A stretch of DNA of 64,000 bases from Squalus acanthias (GCA_030390025.1 CM059431.1:101558001-101622000), one strand, 5' to 3'; counted from the stretch's first letter, positions 7,046-63,203 are shown. Translations and numbers: made by a program. The notes: generated by a model from the letters alone, not told the origin.

Positions 7046-9929
7046 TTCGGCCACCTTGGATTCATTGTTCGTAACTCCCGACTCGGTCCCCTCCGTTCCT
7101 CGATCTCACTCCCCACATTTCAAACGCCTTCTCCAAATCAATCTATTACTGTCACCTCTCCTCACCCTCACCTGAAGGCTCCGCTCCCACACTCTGTCTA
7201 TTCTGTGAAGCACCTTTAGGCATTTTGTTTTTTTACATTAATAGTGCTTTGTAAATAAACACTGTTGCTGCCGTTTATTTCATTCGGGGGCAGGACTTGA
7301 AAGAAAATATTCACGGTATTTCCCCCTCTCTGCTTTTATCCATTTTTTGTGAAAAAATTTGGAATTTTGCGGCATTGTTTCAAAGCAATGCCTTGAAAGG
7401 CTTGGCTTAACTTAACGATATTCTCTGCAATGTTTATTCAAATAAATTATAGGCCTTAAAATCTGCCGTTCAAGTCTCCGTCTCTCAGACAGCCTCTTGT
7501 TAGATGGACGGAGCTCCTCCTTGCTGCCTGGAGTAGTCGCACAGTTTAAAAGTTTTGCAGCTTTGCTACTGCGGGAAAATCGCAACACGGATTCACAGGA
7601 ATGTATCGACAAAGAAACGAAGCGAAAGAATCAACTTTTTATTTCTGGAACGCCTTTCGTGACCTCGGGACGTCCCAAAGCGTTTTACAGCCAATGAAGT
7701 ACATTTTTTGGAGTGTGTGGTCACTGTTGTAATGTAGGGAAACGCGGCAGCCAATATGCGCACAGCAAGCTCCCACACACAGCAATGTGATAAATGACCG
7801 GATCACATCTGCCTTTGGGAAATGGGATCTTTTGCGTCCACCCTGAGAGGGCAGACGGAGCCTCGGTTTTAACGTCTCATCCGTACGACGGCACCTCCGA
7901 CAGTGCTGCGCTCCCTCGGTACATAAATCTAGGCTTACACTCCCAGTACAGTGCTGAGGGAGTGCTGCACTGTCAGAGGTGCCGTCTTTCGGATGAGATG
8001 TTAAACCGAGGCCCCTCAGGTGGACGTAAAAGATCCCACGGCACTATTTTGAAGAAGAGCAGGGGAGTTCTCCCCGGTGTCCTGGTCAACATTTATCCCT
8101 CAATCAACATAACAAACAGATTATCTGGTCATTATCACATTGCTGTTTGTGGGAGCTTGCTGTGCGCAAATTGGCTGCCGTGCTTCCCACATTACAACTT
8201 CACTTCAAAAGTACTTCATTGGCTGTAAAGCACTTTGGGACGTCCGGTGGTCGTGAAAGGCGCTATATAAATGCAAGTCTGTCTTTTCTTTTGGGTGTGC
8301 GAGCACTATTCGAGATAGCCCTGTCTAGAAGTCTTGGGCTAGCCTTGGAAACCCTGATCAGCGCACAGACAAATGAGAAGGGAGGCCAGGAAGTTTTTCT
8401 TTTTCTTTTACTGCACCTGGATTTTGTGCTCAAGCCTGTGGAGTGGGGCTTGAACCCACAACCTCCTGACTCCGAGGTGAGTGAGCGAGCGAGCGTGCTA
8501 CTCACTGAGCCACGGCTAACACCTTGTACTGGGCTCGCCAAGACGTGGAACAGGTCTGTCTTGCGTGACTAATGTGGCTTCTTCAAGCGCAACGGGAGAA
8601 ATGGCAGAAATCCCCCAGCACGTCGTTCAGTTAACTGTTTTCTCTCAATTGCAGGTCCTGAATCTTATTTGAGGAGGCTAATTGTTGCTGAATGTAATGG
8701 AATGTGGGGGATGGAGTGTTTACTTTGTACATTCCTCCACCTTTTTAACATTAACAGGGGCACGGGTTTACACAGCTGTCCTACTACAAAAGAATTTTTT
8801 GTTAAGTTTGTTATCACTGATTACAGCGATGATGGGAAATGACCCTGCAAACCACAGTAACATGAAGTTTTCAGTTAAGTGGGAGGAAATAACTTTCTCA
8901 ACTGCGAGTTTAGGAGGATTAAAGTAGCAGCTCCCCTTTTCCCTCTGCTCCGTTCCCCGTGCCAATTTGAAATTTGGTTTCGAACTTCACGGAATACTGC
9001 TTCTCCCTCGCATTGTTGCAGCGTGCACCTCTTTTCCAAGCGTCAGTTTGATTTTGGTGGGTGCCATTTCATTTGTTTGTGAGGCTCACTAAACGTTTGA
9101 TTTTAAAATTTTCATCCTTGTTTTCAAATCCCTCCGTGGCCTCGCCCCCTCCTCCCTATCTCTGTAACCTCCTCCAGCCACACAACCCTCCCAGATTTCT
9201 ATTTTGAAGAAGAGCAGGGGGAGTTCTCCCCGGTGTCCTGGGGCCAATATTTATTCCTCAACCAACATCACTAAAACAGATTATCTGGTCATTAGCACAT
9301 TGCTGTTTGTGGTGCGCAATTTGGCTGCCGCGCTCCACCATTGGCGGCCGTGCCTTCAGCTGCCTGGGCCCCAAGCTCTGGAATTCCCTGCCTAAACCTC
9401 TCCGCCTCTCTCTCCTTTTTAAGACGCTCCTTAAAACCCACCTCTTTGACCAAGCTTTTGGTCACTTGTCCTAATATCTCCTTACGTGACTTAGTGTCAA
9501 ATTTTGTTTGATAAACGCTCCTGTGAAGCGCCTTGGGACGTTTTACTACGTTAAAGGCGCTGTATAAATATTGTTGATTTCTGAGATTGTCCGGCTGGTC
9601 AGCATGATGCATCGCCACTATTCGCACCTGGCTGGATCCCTATCATGGCCACAGCAGCCCGGAAAGTATTTGATTAACTTTGTCTCTACTTATCCCTATC
9701 ACTCCTGCCCTCCACTCTATCACAGACGTTCTCCTTTGTTCATTTCTCCCCACCTTTCCCTGGTTCTGTCTCAGCTTAATAACCGTTATCTTCCAGTTCT
9801 GACGAAGGGTCACAGACCTGAAACGTTGACTCTGTTTCTCTCTCCACAGATGCTGCCTGACCTGCTGAGTCTTTCCCAGCATTTCCTTTTTTTATTTCCA
9901 ATAACCCTTATCCCCATTTATCTGAATTA

Positions 9930-16015: not shown

Positions 16016-16295
16016 TATGGGCCCCGATTATTTTCCATCGCTCCACCGTTGGCGGCCGTAAGCTCTGGAACTCCCTCCCTAAACCTCTCCGCCTCTCCAA
16101 CTCTCTCTCCCCTCCTTTAAGTCACTCCTTAAAACCTTCCTCTTTGTCCAAGCTTTTGGTCTCCTGTCCTAATATCTTCTGACGTGGCTCGGTATCAAAT
16201 TTGTCTGATAATCGCTCCTGTGAAGCGCCTTGGGACGTTTTACTAATTTAAAGGCGCTATATAAAGGCAAGTTGTGGTTGTACTTGAGTGAAGTA

Positions 16296-16584
16296 TGATG
16301 TGGAGATGCTGGTGTTGGACTGGGGTGGACAAAAATGAGAAGTCGCACAGCACCAGATTATAGTCCAACAGTTTTTATTTGAAATCACGAGCTTTCGGAG
16401 CGCTGCTCCTTCGTCAGGTGAAGTGAAGGAATACAAATCAGCAAAGCTACACATTGTTCTCTGTCTATATATGCTTTGCTGATCTTTATTCCTTCACTTC
16501 ACCTGACGAAGGAGCAGCGCTCCGAAAGCTCGTGATTTCAAATAAAACTGTTGGACTATAACCTGGTGTTGTGCGACTTCTAAT
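16296..16584. mobile_element. Fold-back Penelope-derived mini-element, copy 1; hammerhead motifs at 16385-16421 (-) and 16499-16535 (+)
   Basis: About 110-bp inverted arms; 12-bp TSD ttgagtgaagta at 16284-16295 and 16585-16596. Confidence 0.88.
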
Positions 16585-18349
16585 TTGAGTGAAGTAGCAA
16601 AGGATAGCCGGTGTCTAAAATGAATACATTTTTAACGATCTGTTTGAACTAAAGTGCTTCATTTATAAGCAATCTACGGCAACTAATTTGAACAAAACCC
16701 ATCCTTGTAATTTGGGAATGGGGGTGTTGCGATGGTTGTGTGTGAGTGTCCTTGTGTGCTGAAATAGCTTTGTAGATATTCGTTATCTGGGTGAGCTCCT
16801 TGGAGGATAAGCTTGTTTCTTGAGTTGGGGCGAGTGAGCAGGAGCAGTTTGTGCGAGATTTGTAGCCTTGGGAATGTGCTGTCAGAACTCAACTATTCAG
16901 CTGTTAAGTTCATATTGCACATATGTGCTTTATCACTTTTTTTGCTTTTTATACGCAAGTGCTTAAACATGCACTGATGATCTCTGGCGCTTCCAGCTGG
17001 GGCTCTCAGTCCATGCTCGTTGTGAATGGCACAGGTCTGTCCAGAGCCTTGTGACTGTTGAATAAATTACTGCCAGATCTTTTTAGTCAAAGACTGGGAA
17101 AAATATTAGCAAGGCCACGTGCCAAGCAACTAGTCAGAAAATGAATCTTTTTCCAACGCACTGGGTCTGATTTCCATTCAAGTGTCAGCCGTGGCTCAGT
17201 GGGCAGCACTCTCGCCTCTGAGTCAGAAGGTTGTGGGTTCAAGTCCCACTCCAGAATCTAGACTGAACACTCCCAGCGCAGTACTGAGGGAGTGCTGCAC
17301 TGTTGGAGGTGCCGTCTTTCGGATGAGATGTTAAGCCGAGGTCTCGTCTGCTCTCGAAGGTGGACGTAAAAAAATCCCATGTTTCGAAGAAGAGCAGGGG
17401 AGTTCTCCCTGGAGTCTTGGTCAATATTTATCCCTCAATCAACATCACTAAAAAAACAGATTATCGGGTCATCGTCACATTGCTGTTTGTGGGAGCTTGC
17501 TGTGCGTAAAATGGCTGCTGCGTTTCCTACATTACAACAGAAAATACACTTCAAAAAGTACTTTAATTGGTTGTTAAGCACTTTAGGACTTGAGCCGACA
17601 GCCTTCTGATTTGAAAGCGAGCGTGCTACCCACTGAGCCACGGCCCGCACTTGGGTAGGTGAATTTAATTAGAATTAATGGGTTGTTGCTTAAAAGGAAT
17701 GATGGGGAAAAGGAAACATTTTGCCTCTTATTAAAGTGCTCCCCTTTGAGGTTTTGGAATTGATTTCCGTTGAGAGTGGGCTTTCTGTACAATGTCAACT
17801 GAATGTGGCTGGGGAGTAAGTGCTATGATGCAATTGTCTAATCATGTATGGAAAGAACGAACAAGTCCCACCAGATTATTGGTATTATGCTGTAGATTTG
17901 CGGTTGTATAACAGTGTGTGCCGTAAGCAACCTTCTTTCACTAAACCTCTACAAGGAAGGATTTATTGCACACCATTAATTTTAAAAGGTTATAAAGTAG
18001 TTGGGGAAGCGTAGACCATAGACTTTTTGATAATTCAATGTTCTAGGAATCAACTACACAGGATTTTTTTTTGATTTTGAAATACGACTAAAGTCTTTAA
18101 GAGGTAATGAACTGAAGGCTTGAGGGAAGCCAATATGAGTGGCTGATGTGTGTGGCAAGTGTACAAGAAGCAAGTGTTCTTGGTTATGTTGCAGTCTGAA
18201 GTTATAAAATTAGTGCATTGAAGTCCATTCTCAATTGTTTTATAACACACGCAATGTCTTTTTCTGTAAGTCCCGTCAATTGTCTATACCGTAAGATTTA
18301 AAACTGAGATCTGTCTGTCAGGCCGTCCCAATGTGCCTCGGGTATCTGT

Positions 18350-19070
18350 CCATTTCTGTTCCAACGAAGCTCAACGTAAGCTCGAGGAACAGCACCTCAT
18401 CTTTCTATTATGTGGTGATGCCGGTGTTGGACTGGGGTGGACAAATGTGAGAAGTCGCACAACACCAGGTTATAGTCCAACAGTTTTATTTGAAATCACC
18501 AAGCTTTCGGAGCGCTGCTCCTTCATCACCTGACGAAGGAGCAGCGCTCCGAAAGCTTGTGATTTCAAATAAAACTGTTGGATTATAACCTGGTGTTGTG
18601 CGACATCTTTCTATTAGGCACTTTACAGCCTTCTGGACTTAACATCGAGTTCAACAATTTCAGACTATAAATTGGCCCCTGTAGTTCTTTCTTTTTGTTT
18701 CTCTTGTTTCCTCACATGGTAGCTGTTAATGTTGCTGCCATCATCATTCACACATCATCTAGAGCCATCTTTTGTTTCTTAACTTGTCCCATTACCATCT
18801 CCTTTTGCCTCGCACCATCATCCCTTTTGTCAGTCAATCTCTCCGGCCTTCCATCCCATCACAGACCTTCCCTTTGTTCTTTCCTCCCCTCCTCCCTGCC
18901 CCTGCTTATAATTCTCTCCTCTCTAACCTTTTCCAGTTCTGACGAAGGGTCCCCGACTGGAAACGTTAACTCTGTTTCTCTCTCCACGGATGCTGCCTGA
19001 CCTACTGTGTGTTTCCAGCGTTCTGTGTCTTTATTTCAGATTTCCAGCACCCGCGGGATTTTGCTGTTGT
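18350..19070 (+). mobile_element. Penelope-like 3' end (same family), interrupted at 18411-18603
   Basis: EAQRKLEEQHLIF...LGTLQPSGLNIEFNNFR matches the C-terminus of the 23680 ORF; hammerhead-like motif at 18934-18971. Confidence 0.88.
18411..18603. mobile_element. Fold-back mini-element, copy 2; hammerhead motif at 18526-18562 (+)
   Basis: 13-bp TSD catctttctatta at 18398-18410 and 18604-18616; the arms meet with almost no loop. Confidence 0.88.
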
Positions 19071-23289: not shown

Positions 23290-24470
23290 ATTGTCAATAT
23301 GCAAAATAACAGAAAACGCTGGAAAAACTAAGCAGGCCAGGCAGCATCCGTGGAGAGAGAAACAGAGTTAACGTTTCAGGTCGAAGACCTTTCGTCAGAA
23401 CTGGAAAAAGCAGGAAATGAAATAGATTTAAAGCAAGGATAAAGCTGGGAAAAGGGGGAGGGGATGAAAGAACAAAAGGAGAGATTAAGAGACATTGAGA
23501 GACATTAAGAGATGATCAAGGCAAGAGGAGGTGTTAATGTGACAGATTGAGGCTAAATGAAGTGTGAAATGCACTGGCAGAATGAAGGACAGCTGCCAGC
23601 TTCTGGGAGGAAAAAAAAAGGGGGGGCCAAACAAAAGGGTGGATGAAAAAATAAAATATAAATGTGATAGGGGCTGAGGTTATGATCTAAAATTGTTGAA
23701 CTCGATATTGAGTCCAGAGGGCTGTAAAGTGCCTAAACGAAAGATGAGCTGCTGTTCCTCGAGCTTACGCTGAGCTTCCGTGGAACAGTGTAATAGGCCG
23801 AGGACGGTGAGGTCAGAGTGGGAGTGGAGCGGAGAATTAAAGTGACAGGCCACCGGGAGCTCGGGGTCCCCCTTACGGACTGAACGGAGGTGTTCCGCAA
23901 AGGGGTCACCCAATCTGCGTTTGGTCTCCCCAATGTAGAGGAGACCACATCGTGAGCAGCGAATACAGTATACTAAATTGCAGGAAGTACAAGTAAATCG
24001 CTGTTTCACCTGGAAGGGGTGTTTGGGGCCCTGGACAGTGGGACGAGGGGAGGTATAAGGGCATGTGTTGCATCTCCTGCGCTTGCATGGGAAGGTGCCG
24101 GGCGAAGGGGAAGGGGTGCTGGGGGTGGTAGAGGAGTGGACTAGGTGGTCGCGGAGGGAGCGGTCCCTGCGGAATGCTGAAAGGGGAGGTGAGGGGAAGA
24201 TGCGTTTGGTGGTGGGATCACGCTGGAGGTGGCGGAAATGGCGGAGGATGATCCGTTGAATGTGGAGGCTGGTGGGGTGAAAGGTGAGGACAAGGGGAAC
24301 TCTATCGTGGTTCCGGGAGGGAGGGGCAGGGGTGAGGGCAGAAGTGCGGGAGATAGAATGGACACGGTCGAGGGCCGTGTCGACCACAGTAGAGGGGAAT
24401 CCTCGGTTGAGGAAAAAGGAAGACATGTCGGAAGCACTGGTATGGAAGGTGGCATCGTCAGAGCAGATGC
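23290..24470 (-). mobile_element. Penelope-like element 3' part: RT thumb/linker + GIY-YIG endonuclease + hammerhead-bearing end
   Basis: ORF 23680-24426: FLNRGFP...CKRRRCNTC...NLVYCIRCSRCGLLYIGETKRRL...GLN. CTGACGA...GAAACGTT motif at 23366-23402 (-). Confidence 0.92.
23366..23402 (-). ncRNA. Minimal type-I hammerhead ribozyme motif (family A)
   Basis: AGTT-CTGACGA-A-AGGTC-ttc-GACCT-GAAA-CG-TT-AACT: stem I, conserved core, stem II and palindromic AACGTT stem III. Confidence 0.8.
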
Positions 24471-48065: not shown

Positions 48066-48732
48066 TGAGTCAGAAGATCCTGGGTTCAAGTCCCGCTCCA
48101 GAGACTTGAGCACAGAAATCTAGGTTGACACTCCAGTGCAGTACTGAGGGAGCGCCGCACTGTCGGAGGGGCAGTACTGAGGGAGCGCTGCACTGTCGGA
48201 GGGGCAGTACTGAGGGAGCGCTGCACTGTCGGAGGGGCGGTACTGAGGGAGTGCCGCACTGTCGGAGGGGCGGTACTGAGGGAGCACCGCACTGTCGGAG
48301 GGGCAGTACTGAGGGAGCGCTGCACTGTCGGAGGGGCGGTACTGAGGGAGTGCCGCACTGTCGGAGGGGCGGTACTGAGGGAGCACCGCACTGTCAGAGG
48401 GGCAGTACTGAGGGTGCGCCGCATTGTCAGAGGTGCCGTCTTTTGGCTGAAACGTTAAACCGAGGCCCCATCTGCCCCCTCAGATGGATGTAAAAGATGC
48501 CACCGCACTATTGGCTGGATGAGCAGGGGAGTTCTCCTCGGGGTCCGATCCAATATCTATTCCTCAACATCACTTTAAAAAAACGAGAAACATTATTTCA
48601 TTGCTGTTTGTGGGAGCTTGCTGTGTGTAAATTGGCTGCTGCGTTTCCCACATTACAAACAGTGACGATACTTCAGAAGTACTTGGTTGGCCGCGAAGCG
48701 CTTTGGGACGTCGTGCGATCGTGAAAGGCGCT
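48066..48732 (+). mobile_element. Same SINE containing a 33-bp array (48139-48433, about 9 units)
   Basis: Partial head, array, body and tail. Confidence 0.88.
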
Positions 48733-49148
48733 CACCCGAGAGGGCAGACGGGGGGGGGGTCTCTGTTTAACGCCTTATCAGAAAGACGGCACCTCCGACA
48801 GTGCGGCGCTCCCTCAGCGCTGCACTGGCGTGTCGGCCTGGATTTTGTGCTCCAGTCTCAGGAGTGGGGGGACCGTGAACCCACAAGCTTCGGACTCGGG
48901 AGGCGAGAGTGCGGCCCGCTGAGCCACGGCTGACGCTGTCCTTGGCGGCTGAACCGCCATGGTGGCGGGAGCGGCGGCCCTGAAACCCCTCTTTCCTGAT
49001 CACTATCCCGTCACAGCTTTAAGCGTGGCTAATGGCAGTAAGCGTTTTCTGCTCACACGTACCATTCTCTAATTCTTGTTATAATTCCGAAACGTTTTAA
49101 GTATATCGTACACACGCGTTTGCTGTAGTTGTGTTTTTAAAATTGATG

Positions 49149-49437
49149 CGGAGATGCCGGTGTTGGACTGGGGTGGACAAAAATGAGAAGTCGCACAACA
49201 CCAGGTTATAGTCCAACAGTTTTATTTAAAATTACGAGCTTTCGGAGCTGCTGCCCCTTCGTCAGGTACAGGTACATTGAGTACACTGCACTATTGGCTG
49301 GATGAGCAGGGGAGTTCTCCTCGGGGTCCGATCCAATATACACTGTACCTGTACCTGACTAAGGAGCAGCCGCTCCGAAAGCTCGTAATTTTAAATAAAA
49401 CTGTTGGACTATAACCTGGTGTTGTGCGACTTCTCAC
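49149..49437. mobile_element. Fold-back mini-element, copy 3, with captured sequence in the loop
   Basis: 14-bp TSD ttttaaaattgatg at 49135-49148 and 49438-49451. Confidence 0.88.
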
Positions 49438-50293
49438 TTTTAAAATTGATGTTGAGGATTCATGTAATATTTTGGGGGGTTTATTTTGGACGAGCTCCTT
49501 GTCCTGGACAGTAGTGGTCCTTTCCGGATGTTTCAGCATGCCTGACTGGTTGGTTTTCTGGAGAAGGCTTTTGTTTTGAAGGTGGTGTTAAGAGCGATTT
49601 AAAAAAAAAAAACCCCCACTAAGTTGCTGCCGGTGATGCTTTAAGTGGCAGCTGCAGATTATTTCCATGCTCCTCAGTTTCCTTCGGCCCGGTTTCCAAG
49701 CGTGTCCCGGTGGGACCTCGAGTAACGAATCACCGTGCCTTCAGATCAGCAAAATAGACGGGAGGCAGCGTGTATCTCGGCACTGAAGATACTGCAAAGC
49801 CTACCGGGAGATTGGAGCCTCGCAGCTATCGAACTGAAACAGGGGGGCAGGAACCAGCGACAGCAGTGCTTCAGCTCGATCTCCGTCAGACCGTGAATCT
49901 CGTTGCCTCCCGGAAGATGACCCTGTGTTGTGAACGAATATAGTTTTCATCTTTAATTTGATGCTTGCCATCGTATCTTTATACTCCTGGAAGAAAGCCC
50001 TGGGCTTGCAATTCCAACAGTGTTTTCGTGCTGCAGTGTTGGCTGTGTGATTTAAAAAAAAAAAAAAAAAAATTCTGCAGCCTTTTAACTCCCTTGTGAT
50101 GTTTTCTCGGAGATGTGTTGCTGTTCACCGCTAAAGGGGAAGACAGGAGAGCGGTGCAGTTATTGTGTGGGGTGGGTTCCCCGAGGGGAGGAGGATGCTG
50201 AGCGTGGTGCCGCTGACCTTTATTCGGAACGGTAGCAGTCTAACGTCCCCATGGAAGCAGAACGATCGATGAGCACCTCTGCACACAAGTGGA

Positions 50294-57785: not shown

Positions 57786-58229
57786 GAAAGGTGCTATAGA
57801 AATGCAAATCTTTCTGTTTTTTCTTTTTACTTACAAAGCTTGGTACACATCCCTGGGCATTAAAGAAACCCGCGTGTCGGTGAATACACAAGAACACCAT
57901 CAGATCAACGGATCATAAATTATGTTAATTTCAGATTTAGGACTGCTTTATGTCACTTTGCTAATTTCGTACTGAATGAATAATAACGAATCAAAAATTT
58001 AAAATAAAATTGACGTGAATTGTTACAAACAATAATTGGGACAATATTTTAAAAGCGCATGAATTTTTAACATCCCTTATCTCAACAAAGGAAGTGATAT
58101 TTTGAAATAACAACAGAAAACGCTGGAAAAACTCAGCAGGCCAAGCAGCATCCGTGGAGAGAGAAACAGAGTCAACGTTTCAGGTCGAAGACCTTTCGTC
58201 AGAAGTGATATTTTGACCTCTTCGAGACC

Positions 58230-62210: not shown

Positions 62211-63203
62211 CCATCCCTCTCCCTGTCCTCTGTCTCCAGCTGAACCATGATGTGGAGATGCCGGTGATGGACTGGGGTGGACAAATGTGAGAAGTCGCAC
62301 AACACCAGGTTATAGTCCAACAGCTTTATTTGAAATCACAAGCTTTCGGAGCGCTGCTCCTTCGTCAGGTGAAGTGAAGAGATGCATCTCTCCACTTCAC
62401 CTGACGAAGGAGCAGCTGCTCCGAAAGCTTGTGATTTCAAATAAAGCTGTTGGACTATAACCTGGTGTTGTGCGACTTCTCACATTTGTCCAGCTGAACC
62501 AGACAGTTTGCAACCTTGCCGTCCTATTTGACCCAGAGCTGAGCTTCCGACCCCATAGTCTTAATATCACAAAGACGACCAACTTCCATCCCCGTAACAT
62601 GGCCCGTCTCCACCTCTCCCTCAGCCCACCAGCTGCTGAAACCCTCTTCACGCTTTTGCTACGTTCAGATTCAACTATTCCAACGCTCTCTCGGCCGGAC
62701 TCCTGTTCTCCACCCTCCGTCAACTTGAGCTCATCCAAAACCCTGCTCCCCGTATCCTAGCTCGCACCAAGTCCCGTTCGCCCATCACCCCTGTGCTCGC
62801 TGACCTACATTGGTTCCTGGTCCAACAATGCCTCTATGTTAAAATTCTCATCCTTGTCTTCAAATCCCTCCACGGCCTCGCCCCCTCCCTATCTCTGTAA
62901 CCTCCTCCAGGCTTACAACACTCCGAGAACTTTGCGATCCGCCAACTCTGGCCGCTTGTACATACCCTACCTTTGGTGGCCGTGCCTTCAGCCGTCTGGT
63001 CCCTAAGCTCTGGAACTCCCTCACTTAAACCTCTCTTGTCTTTTAAGATCCTTCTTAAAACCTACCTCTTTGACCAAGCCTTTAGTTGCTCCTCCTAATA
63101 TCTCCTCCTTCAGCTCGATGTCAATTTTTGTCTGCTTACGCTCCTGTGAAGTGCCTTTCCGCTGATTTCTGATGATAAAGTCGCTATAGAAATGCAAGTT
63201 GTT
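62210..63203 (+). mobile_element. L2-type LINE 3' fragment interrupted by a fold-back Penelope-like insert
   Basis: LNQTVCNLAVLFDPELSFRPH...; same tail as 25090-25838. Confidence 0.85.
62248..62488. mobile_element. Fold-back mini-element, copy 4; hammerhead motifs at 62336-62372 (-) and 62397-62434 (+)
   Basis: 13-bp TSD tccagctgaacca at 62235-62247 and 62489-62501; the centre is itself palindromic (agagatgcatctct). Confidence 0.88.

What the first reader, a model, noticed from the sequence alone, without database searches (positions are those of the whole stretch)
16284..16596. TSD-flanked fold-back mini-elements carrying hammerhead ribozyme motifs on both strands (4 copies in 64 kb)
Seen: four 190-290 bp inserts (16296-16584, 18411-18603, 49149-49437, 62248-62488), each flanked by its own 12-14 bp TSD. 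Each has the same ~40-bp unpaired leader followed by long inverted arms. The arms carry TCAC-CTGACGA-A-GGAGC-loop-GCTCC-GAAA-GC-T(C/T)-GTGA. Copies 1 and 4 have an intact motif on both strands; copies 2 and 3 have one damaged arm. Established: Penelope-like elements carry minimal type-I hammerheads with a palindromic stem III that work as dimers, and they often have inverted partial terminal repeats. An extra A after A9 occurs in the CChMVd hammerhead. Inference: these ORF-less units are either a self-propagating non-autonomous ribozyme retroelement or a recurrent fold-back product of insertion. The different centre in every copy favours de novo fold-back at each insertion. Any transcript would contain a ribozyme plus its own antisense strand, forming a long dsRNA hairpin.
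Basis: partly seen in the sequence, partly recalled or inferred. Interest (0 to 1): 0.8.

Follow-up and report, generated by a model that had tools for sequence, protein, structure and literature searches.

The report
Truncated fold-back Penelope retrotransposon copies
The four hairpin-shaped inserts are the usual dead-on-arrival tail-end copies left by a very abundant Penelope-like jumping gene of this shark-type genome, each carrying that element's small hammerhead ribozyme motif, so they are an ordinary example of a known kind.

Summary
Four inserts of 195-291 bp, each flanked by an 11-13 bp target-site duplication (TSD), share a constant left end, inverted arms and a minimal type-I hammerhead motif.

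They are not a new ORF-less element. The arms are the last 100-150 nt of a young, very abundant Penelope-like element (PLE). Longer copies run from an RT / CxxC-linker / GIY-YIG-like ORF through about 300 nt of 3'UTR to the same hammerhead and the same end.

The "leader" is the published 30-40 bp PLE tail, here 34 nt. A head-to-head inverted 5'-truncated copy, a tail on one arm and palindromes at the junction are all published PLE features. So is the motif: an extra base after A9, G10.1-C11.1 and a palindromic AGCU.

In a tail-blind sample, 17 of 31 insertions were fold-backs of 293-2538 bp. All 17 had exactly one tail, and the untailed arm was longer in 15.

The centres are made anew at each insertion. 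Copy 3 carries 56 nt copied from 0.8 kb upstream. The recurrent perfect palindrome of copy 4 sits on a templated TGCA, and its 72-nt arm occurs 2,575 times in the genome.

Self-cleavage was not tested.

The scan reached the same reading before, in this genome and in another.

The parts
16284..16295 (.). Copy 1, left target-site duplication TTGAGTGAAGTA
   Evidence: Exact 12-bp repeat of 16585-16596.
16296..16584 (-). Copy 1: 289-bp fold-back PLE insertion. The tail-bearing short arm is on the left. The longer untailed arm is on the right and continues through the "loop".
   Evidence: BLAST to the ORF-linked reference L048: left arm covers reference 1528-1642 plus the tail, right arm covers 1501-1641. 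The centre matches parent sequence found at many loci.
16385..16421 (-). Copy 1 minimal hammerhead, tail-bearing arm
   Evidence: Strict descriptor hit: TCAC CTGACGA A GGAGC AGC GCTCC GAAA GC TC GTGA.
16499..16535 (+). Copy 1 minimal hammerhead, untailed arm
   Evidence: Strict descriptor hit.
16585..16596 (.). Copy 1, right target-site duplication
18410..18604 (-). Copy 2: 195-bp fold-back. The junction lies inside the hammerhead core of the left arm. The TSD ATCTTTCTATT lies at 18399-18409 and 18605-18615.
   Evidence: The right-arm hammerhead at 18526-18562 is intact. The left arm reads GTGATGA at the core.
49147..49437 (-). Copy 3: 291-bp fold-back. The TSD TTTTAAAATTGA lies at 49135-49146 and 49438-49449.
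49284..49339 (+). Templated filler in the centre of copy 3
   Evidence: 98% identical over 56 nt to window 48501-48556 on the same strand, about 0.8 kb upstream. Other genomic copies of that repeat are only 82-87% alike.
62235..62247 (.). Copy 4, left target-site duplication TCCAGCTGAACCA
   Evidence: Repeated at 62489-62501.
62248..62488 (-). Copy 4: 241-bp near-perfect palindrome centred on TGCA, with hammerhead motifs at 62336-62372 (-) and 62397-62434 (+).
62248..62281 (-). The 34-nt PLE tail of copy 4: the extension from the inner to the outer end.
   Evidence: It is the unpaired 3' tail of the hairpin fold. The same tail ends 46 arms in the loci held.

Best explanation
Each insert is a dead-on-arrival product of one insertion event of an endonuclease-positive Penelope-like element (PLE). 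The same ORF-linked 3' end is very abundant in this genome.

Shown:
- The arms are the 3' end of an element whose ORF carries RT, a CxxC linker and a GIY-YIG-like endonuclease.
- The hammerhead lies about 300 nt after the stop codon.
- Copies end at one of two places: an inner end about 60 nt after the predicted cleavage site, or an outer end 34 nt further on (the tail).
- In a fold-back, one arm ends at the inner site and the other at the outer site. The arms lie head to head, and a TSD of mostly 12-13 bp flanks the whole insert.

Inferred, following the published in-vitro behaviour of the anole element PAc (both target strands are nicked and extended, and reverse transcription starts at two adjacent internal sites):
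- Two cDNAs are primed from the two target strands and grow towards each other.
- They are joined by a template switch or by end joining at 0-5 nt of microhomology.
- Sometimes the join carries 5-17 nt of filler, or locally templated DNA.

The hammerheads are passengers of the copied 3'UTR. In a transcript of a fold-back, the single sense motif would be locked in a hairpin of about 100 bp. No tandem partner is present for the dimer that the palindromic AGCU helix III requires.
For: Parent element.
- The 660-bp arm of L047 begins inside an ORF.
- L048:3-1247 is an open frame of 415 aa and L072:5120-6499 one of 460 aa. They carry YIDD, CHGNLCKTCQ and YLIRC...WYIGETMQTLRQRMNGHR.
- Pfam RVT_1 scores 30.5 bits against a cut-off of 29.6 on the L072 frame.
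- The C-terminus aligns with a Pfam-positive GIY-YIG ORF at 38% identity, E 5e-10.
- The 3'UTR with the hammerhead and the end is read directly.

Abundance.
- The 87-aa endonuclease fragment gives 49,591 first-look candidates. All 150 that were scored are 98-100% identical, with open frames of up to 863 aa.

Architecture.
- 33 fold-backs have an exact TSD. The lengths are 8 bp (1), 9 bp (1), 10 bp (2), 11 bp (3), 12 bp (10), 13 bp (12) and 14 bp (4).
- The tail-blind sample is the 30 loci found with a tail-free query. Its 31 insertions are 17 fold-backs of 293-2538 bp, 5 singles with a TSD and 9 unresolved.
- All 17 fold-backs have exactly one tail. The untailed arm is longer in 15 of 17, two-sided binomial p = 0.002.
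- In the first 100 rows of a genome-wide 25-mer search (7,466 matches), I read 26 pairs within 5 kb. All are (-,+), that is head to head. None is (+,-).

Centres made anew.
- Centres differ between copies.
- The "loop" of copy 1 is continued parent sequence.
- The centre of copy 3 holds 56 nt copied from 0.8 kb upstream.

Literature (passages read).
- PMC8557442: an inverted 5'-truncated copy at the 5' end, and a 30-40 bp tail at one end.
- PMC3846280: a 31-bp tail on one of the inverted pLTRs, palindromes at the junction, and a head-to-head arrangement.
- PMC11167929: both strands are extended, and the two RT start sites delimit the tail.
Against:
- Pfam's GIY-YIG model did not reach E <= 0.01 on the two long frames. 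That domain therefore rests on a pairwise alignment and on the motif.
- The tail-bearing arm is the longer one in 2 of 17 fold-backs (L052, L055). Any strictly ordered model must allow exceptions.
- A few one-arm variants are shared between independent copies of the copy-4 form. One of them is not at a CpG (L006 and L011). A GTAT centre variant occurs at several sites. This leaves some room for whole-unit copying.
- No RNA data could be used, so transcription and cleavage are untested.
Confidence: 0.85

Rival explanations
1. The 241-bp perfect palindrome (the copy-4 form) is a self-propagating non-autonomous hairpin element. Its whole fold-back would be transcribed, trimmed to the stem and copied as a unit by the PLE machinery.
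For: - The same centre, GAAGAGATGCATCTCTTC, is found at 12 sites with different flanks among 30 loci, and at 13 of the 50 listed places in an exhaustive pattern search.
- A few one-arm variants are shared by independent copies: L006/L011 at a non-CpG site, and L010/L022 and L011/L012 at CpG sites.
Against: - The exact 72-nt arm of this form, with all its diagnostic bases and the TGCA, occurs 2,575 times in the genome. Almost all of these lie outside such palindromes. TGCATCTC... arms number 5,932.
- A second subfamily, TGCATTTC (422 arms), yields its own TGCA-centred perfect palindrome at 4 sites. So the junction follows the template's palindrome rather than descent.
- The untailed ends of these copies scatter over about 9 nt, like the independently initiated ends of other fold-backs.
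- The arms are symmetric in consensus.
Confidence: 0.12
2. They are animal non-LTR retrozymes: tandem hammerhead repeats that spread through circular RNA.
For: A 2026 preprint (10.64898/2026.07.22.740005; abstract and passages read) derives retrozymes from PLE pLTRs and reports them in one chondrichthyan.
Against: - The copies are dispersed, inverted pairs with their own TSDs. They are not head-to-tail arrays.
- I read no same-strand pair closer than 3 kb in the first 100 rows.
- The arms are collinear with an ORF-bearing element.
Confidence: 0.02
3. They are fold-back DNA transposons (MITEs), or hairpin RNA genes of the miRNA type.
For: They have long inverted arms and flanking duplications. 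With relaxed thresholds, Rfam gives sub-threshold matches to long plant miRNA hairpins, for example MIR821 at 130.7 bits against a gathering score of 249.
Against: - TSD length varies from 8 to 14 bp.
- One end carries a 34-nt extension that the other end lacks.
- Arm length runs from about 90 nt to 2.4 kb, as expected for 5' truncation.
- The arms are the 3' end of an RT-encoding element.
- The Rfam matches cover any perfect hairpin and lie far below threshold.
Confidence: 0.01

Closest known systems
Insertion units of endonuclease-positive Penelope-like elements (Penelope/Poseidon, Neptune): pLTR, adjacent inverted 5'-truncated copy, optional 30-40 bp tail (Evgen'ev & Arkhipova 2005 as cited in PMC8557442; PMC3846280; PMC8557442)
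   Same: - A head-to-head inverted 5'-truncated copy.
- A tail of 34 nt on one arm only.
- Short TSDs of variable length.
- Palindromes, microhomology or captured DNA at the junction.
- An RT plus C-terminal GIY-YIG-like ORF with a CxxC-type linker.
- A hammerhead near the 3' end.
   Different: - Here the products are extreme truncations of 195-291 bp with no ORF, and they are very numerous.
- The direct pLTR arrangement of a full-length copy was not seen, because no more genome sequence could be fetched.
- Two regularities are counts I did not find stated in the passages read: exactly one tail in 17 of 17 fold-backs, and the untailed arm longer in 15 of 17.
Minimal hammerhead ribozymes of metazoan PLEs (Cervera & de la Pena 2014, PMC4209133; first two of four parts of the text read)
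   Same: - The CUGANGA...GAAA core.
- An unpaired base between A9 and G10.1.
- The G10.1-C11.1 pair.
- A 4-bp helix I.
- Palindromic 15.2-16.2 (AGCU), which implies action as a dimer.
- Location in the PLE terminal region.
- Pairs of motifs on opposite strands 100-700 bp apart are mentioned there.
   Different: This is a specific sequence family of this genome. Cleavage was not assayed here. The paper reports only low in-vitro activity for such motifs.
PAc, the Poseidon element of Anolis carolinensis, characterised in vitro (Frangieh et al. 2024, PMC11167929; main text read)
   Same: - Two adjacent internal RT start sites whose spacing equals the tail.
- An AC-rich initiation region.
- Both target strands are cleaved and extended, which fits inverted products.
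- The hammerhead lies roughly 90 nt upstream of the outer start site (about 94 nt here).
   Different: - In PAc the hammerhead overlaps the ORF start and the start sites lie inside the ORF. Here all three frames are closed right after the motif, which lies about 300 nt downstream of the stop codon.
- No biochemistry exists for this family.

Membership tests
Metazoan PLE minimal hammerhead (min-HHR) | Catalytic core CUGANGA ... GAAA with a U-H cleavage site | tested here: met
   5 strict hits in the window, against 0 in the reversed and shuffled controls. 107 relaxed hits in 342,964 bases held, against 0 in reversed controls.
Metazoan PLE minimal hammerhead (min-HHR) | [quoted passage not shown] | tested here: met
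   All 44 distinct motifs carry A after CUGANGA. Pair 13/26 of the alignment is G-C in 30, G-U in 8 and A-U in 6.
Metazoan PLE minimal hammerhead (min-HHR) | Palindromic 15.2-16.2 (dimer-type helix III) and a short helix I | tested here: met
   AGCU in family 1 and ACGU in family 2. Helix I has 4 bp. Between the two families, 8 of 11 pairs change on both sides. The rows were picked with a descriptor that demands pairing, so only the between-family changes carry weight.
Metazoan PLE minimal hammerhead (min-HHR) | Self-cleavage | not testable with these tools
No run on record as RNA was listed, and all listed runs are kept as contigs, which cannot show RNA ends.
Rfam hammerhead families | Match to a curated covariance model | tested here: not met
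   0 matches at gathering score in the window. No hammerhead family at E <= 10 on 16250-16650. Whether Rfam holds a model of the minimal PLE type was not checked.
Endonuclease-positive Penelope-like element | [quoted passage not shown] | tested here: inconclusive
   RVT_1 scores 30.5 bits against a cut-off of 29.6 on L072, but 23.2 bits, below the cut-off, on L048. Pfam GIY-YIG does not reach E <= 0.01 on these frames. The C-terminus aligns with a Pfam-positive GIY-YIG ORF (E 5e-10; 36.2 bits) and shows the YIGET...R...H motif. Only the C-terminal 415-460 aa were read.
Endonuclease-positive Penelope-like element | An inverted 5'-truncated copy next to the 5' end, giving a head-to-head repeat | tested here: met
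   17 of 31 insertions in the tail-blind sample. 26 of 26 close pairs are (-,+) in the first 100 rows.
Endonuclease-positive Penelope-like element | A 30-40 bp tail at one end only | tested here: met
   A 34-nt tail. Exactly one tail in 17 of 17 tail-blind fold-backs and in all 4 window copies.
Endonuclease-positive Penelope-like element | Direct pseudo-LTRs from a partial tandem arrangement | not tested
Non-LTR retrozyme | Head-to-tail tandem repeats of the hammerhead unit | tested here: not met
   The four window copies are single inverted pairs with their own TSDs. No same-strand pair closer than 3 kb in the first 100 rows.
MITE / fold-back DNA transposon | Symmetric terminal inverted repeats with a TSD of fixed length | tested here: not met
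   A one-sided 34-nt extension, TSDs of 8-14 bp, and arms that equal the 3' end of a retroelement.

The most novel reading that the evidence does not exclude
The genomic record of this family points to an ordered two-strand insertion on a single RNA.
- One reverse transcriptase starts at the inner site on one target strand and runs ahead.
- A second starts 34 nt further 3', at the outer site, on the other target strand and trails behind.
- The trailing cDNA then switches onto the first cDNA, preferably at short palindromes such as TGCA.

This would explain three things: why every fold-back has exactly one tail, why the tailed arm is usually the shorter one, and why perfect palindromes recur. 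It would give a concrete, testable model for the still unresolved later steps of Penelope-like element integration.
Probability: 0.3. Interest if true: 0.5.

Novelty: new member of a known kind. Interest (0 to 1): 0.22.

Why it matters
It matters little as a discovery. The inserts are a textbook by-product of Penelope-like element insertion, and the ribozyme class was described in 2014.

The value lies in numbers. This genome holds thousands of young, barely decayed insertion products of one family. Their ends, tails, junctions and fillers can be tabulated as a natural record of how these elements integrate, a mechanism that is only partly reconstituted in vitro.

The many perfect hairpins could also be sources of double-stranded RNA against the family. 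That was not examined here.

Tried and rejected
- Rfam gave no hammerhead match, either at gathering score or at E <= 10 on copy 1. The miRNA-family matches are generic hairpin matches far below threshold.
- Walking upstream with DNA failed. L047:985-1200 found nothing, not even itself, because very common words are skipped. A protein query worked instead.
- Pfam GIY-YIG over the genome returned a single locus, an ORF of another PLE family (L073).
- RNA evidence: no RNA holder was listed. All 24 runs are kept as contigs of uncertain kind. Contigs cannot show RNA ends, so I laid no reads.
- Unit propagation of the copy-4 form was my working idea. I dropped it to a minor rival.
- I considered a run-off model: a short RNA with a fixed 5' end, for instance from the TATATAT-20 nt-TTCACT motif just upstream of the hammerhead. 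It is left untested. Short-arm ends cluster 10-30 nt upstream of the core (9 of 17), but they do not coincide with one point.
- Repbase and Dfam were not available. I did not open the supplements of PMC4209133 and PMC8557442, which hold motif lists and consensus libraries. This exact family may already be catalogued there.

Full report
**Observation**

The four inserts exist as described. Each begins on the + strand with TGATG(T/C)GGAGATGCCGGTG.... It continues into an arm, then a centre that differs from copy to copy, then the inverted arm.

The inverted arm stops 31-37 nt short of mirroring the left end. A direct repeat flanks each insert:
- 12 bp in copy 1;
- 11 bp in copy 2;
- 12 bp in copy 3 (the 12-bp repeat read);
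- 13 bp in copy 4.

Chance does not explain these features:
- The leader 23-mer occurs 4 times, all on the + strand, with 0 expected.
- An arm 23-mer occurs 8 times, 4 per strand, with 0 expected.
- A hammerhead-shaped pattern occurs 7 times against 0.31 expected. Two of these seven belong to another family.
- A strict minimal-hammerhead descriptor gives 5 hits in the window, 0 in the reversed window and 0 in 50 shuffles.

**What the arms are**

The window lies in a 3.71-Gb assembly. The central part of copy 1 matched many loci over the stretch just upstream of the hammerhead, so the "loop" of copy 1 is continued parent sequence.

Longer arms from those loci run into an open reading frame. L048:3-1247 is open for 415 aa and L072:5120-6499 for 460 aa. 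These frames contain YIDD, a CHGNLCKTCQ linker and YLIRC...WYIGETMQTLRQRMNGHR.

Domain evidence is as follows:
- Pfam RVT_1 reaches 30.5 bits (cut-off 29.6) on the L072 frame and 23.2 bits on the L048 frame.
- Pfam GIY-YIG does not reach E <= 0.01 on either frame.
- The C-terminus aligns at 38% identity (E 5e-10) with an ORF that does match Pfam GIY-YIG.

In L048 the layout reads as follows:
- The stop codon is followed by about 300 nt of 3'UTR.
- The hammerhead comes next.
- The copy ends about 60 nt after the predicted cleavage site, without a tail.

The 87-aa C-terminal fragment finds 49,591 first-look candidates in the genome. All 150 scored candidates are 98-100% identical, with open frames of up to 863 aa. 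So the parent is a young, very abundant, endonuclease-positive Penelope-like element (PLE).

**The leader is the PLE tail**

Copies end either at an inner site (TTCTCA plus 2-6 nt) or 34 nt further on, at ...GGCATCTCC(G/A)CATCA. As RNA, copy 4 folds into a 102-bp hairpin with exactly this 34-nt free 3' end.

The literature describes these features (passages read):
[quoted passage not shown] - PMC11167929 (main text read): the anole element extends both target strands and starts reverse transcription at two adjacent internal sites whose spacing is the tail. Hammerhead mutants still insert.

**How general the fold-back is**

The 30 loci reached with a tail-free query (one duplicate locus dropped) hold 31 insertions:
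- 17 are fold-backs of 293-2538 bp.
- 5 are single 5'-truncated copies with a TSD. One of them, L066, has an internal inverted piece.
- 9 could not be resolved within the locus.

All 17 fold-backs have exactly one tail. If each arm chose its end independently and evenly, the chance of this would be 0.5^17. The untailed arm is the longer one in 15 of 17 (two-sided binomial p = 0.002). The exceptions are L052 and L055.

By the BLAST coordinates, the junctions show 0-5 nt of overlap in 10 fold-backs and 5-17 nt of filler in 6.

I examined 46 tail-bearing arms, dropping ten loci that share the flanks of L006 and six that repeat another locus or the window. The result:
- 33 belong to a fold-back with an exact TSD: 8 bp (1), 9 bp (1), 10 bp (2), 11 bp (3), 12 bp (10), 13 bp (12), 14 bp (4).
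- 7 were paired with an inverted arm but had no exact TSD. One of these, in L060, is a chance pairing of a single copy with a distant arm.
- 6 had no partner detected.

Genome-wide, a 25-mer spanning the 5' side of the hammerhead occurs 7,466 times. In the first 100 rows I read 26 pairs within 5 kb. All are (-,+), none (+,-).

**Are the small units copied as units?**

At first it seemed so. Copy 4 has near-full-length matches at 90-99% identity. Twelve sites with different flanks share its centre. Further counts argue against unit copying:
- The consensus is a perfect palindrome centred on TGCA.
- TGCATCTCTTCACTTCACCTGA is ordinary arm sequence, with 5,932 matches.
- The exact 72-nt arm of copy 4, with all its diagnostic bases, occurs 2,575 times. 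Almost all of these lie outside such palindromes.
- A pattern that allows any 20-nt centre finds only 53 places. Thirteen of the 50 listed carry the copy-4 centre, and four of those lie in one duplicated segment.
- A smaller subfamily, TGCATTTC (422 matches), has its own TGCA-centred perfect palindrome at 4 places.
- The untailed ends of these copies scatter over about 9 nt, like those of other fold-backs.

The simplest reading is a recurrent junction at a 4-nt palindrome of the template. This agrees with the palindromes at inverted junctions noted in PMC3846280.

Some evidence points the other way. A few one-arm variants are shared between independent copies, one of them not at a CpG. A GTAT centre variant occurs at several places. 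I therefore keep unit copying as a rival at about 0.1.

The centre of copy 3 is direct evidence for a junction made on the spot. It holds 56 nt that are 98% identical to window 48501-48556 on the same strand. Other genomic copies of that repeat are only 82-87% alike.

**The ribozyme motif**

The motif reads UCAC-CUGACGA-A-GGAGC-AGC-GCUCC-GAAA-GC-U(C/U)-GUGA. It has the four features that PMC4209133 lists for PLE minimal hammerheads (first two of four parts read):
- consensus families with compensatory changes;
- a G10.1-C11.1 pair;
- palindromic 15.2-16.2.

That paper also mentions pairs of motifs 100-700 bp apart on opposite strands, and low in-vitro activity.

In the 343 kb held, a relaxed descriptor finds 107 motifs (44 distinct) and none in reversed controls. 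They fall into two families. These differ on both sides at 8 of 11 pairs: all four of helix I, three of helix II, and the palindromic pair. The rows were selected for pairing, so only the between-family changes count as evidence.

No Rfam model matches. Cleavage is untested.

In a fold-back transcript the single sense motif would be buried in the hairpin, and there is no tandem partner for a dimer. So in these copies the motif is best seen as a passenger.

**Verdict**

This is a known kind of thing in a new family. The counts of tails, arm lengths and junctions may be useful to those working on how these elements integrate.

Two earlier notes of this scan reached the same reading. One concerns this genome and one concerns another genome. 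They are not independent evidence.

Noticed in passing
window 9795-9831 (+), 58170-58206 (-), 23366-23402 (-): A second minimal-hammerhead family: helix II (A/G)GGUC/GACCU, helix III ACGU, helix I AGUU/(A/G)ACU. The motif at 23366 lies about 300 nt downstream of an endonuclease-like frame at 23707-23934 (-), which is 40% identical to the family-1 endonuclease. A second PLE family therefore has the same layout.
   Followed up: partly
window 48501-48556: The source of the 56-nt filler in copy 3. It is itself part of a dispersed repeat, with 8 other matches at 82-87% identity.
   Followed up: partly
L006-L009, L013-L016, L019-L021 (each about 3.2 kb): One 234-bp fold-back sits inside a segment of at least 3.2 kb. 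That segment is present at 11 loci at 94-96% identity. It is a segmental duplication or a large repeat that carried the insert along.
   Followed up: no
L048:1521-1553; window 16466-16498: TATATAT lies 20 nt upstream of TTCACT, just 5' of the hammerhead. It resembles the TATA box plus TCACT initiator, 20 bp apart, described for a rotifer Penelope pLTR (PMC3846280). Promoter activity was not tested.
   Followed up: no
L066:6069-6373: A 302-bp insertion with a 12-bp TSD. Its inverted piece lacks its own 3' end (reference 1475-1569 only), a junction type different from the usual fold-back.
   Followed up: no
L045 and L068, tail region: Tails with internal deletions...TTTGTCC-AACACCGG... and ...CCAACACCGCATCA.
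   Followed up: no
runs X1-X24: Parts of the 3'UTR query are held by runs labelled as several different organisms (shares of words 0.36-0.57). The family, or close relatives of it, may therefore occur in related species. No reads were laid.
   Followed up: no
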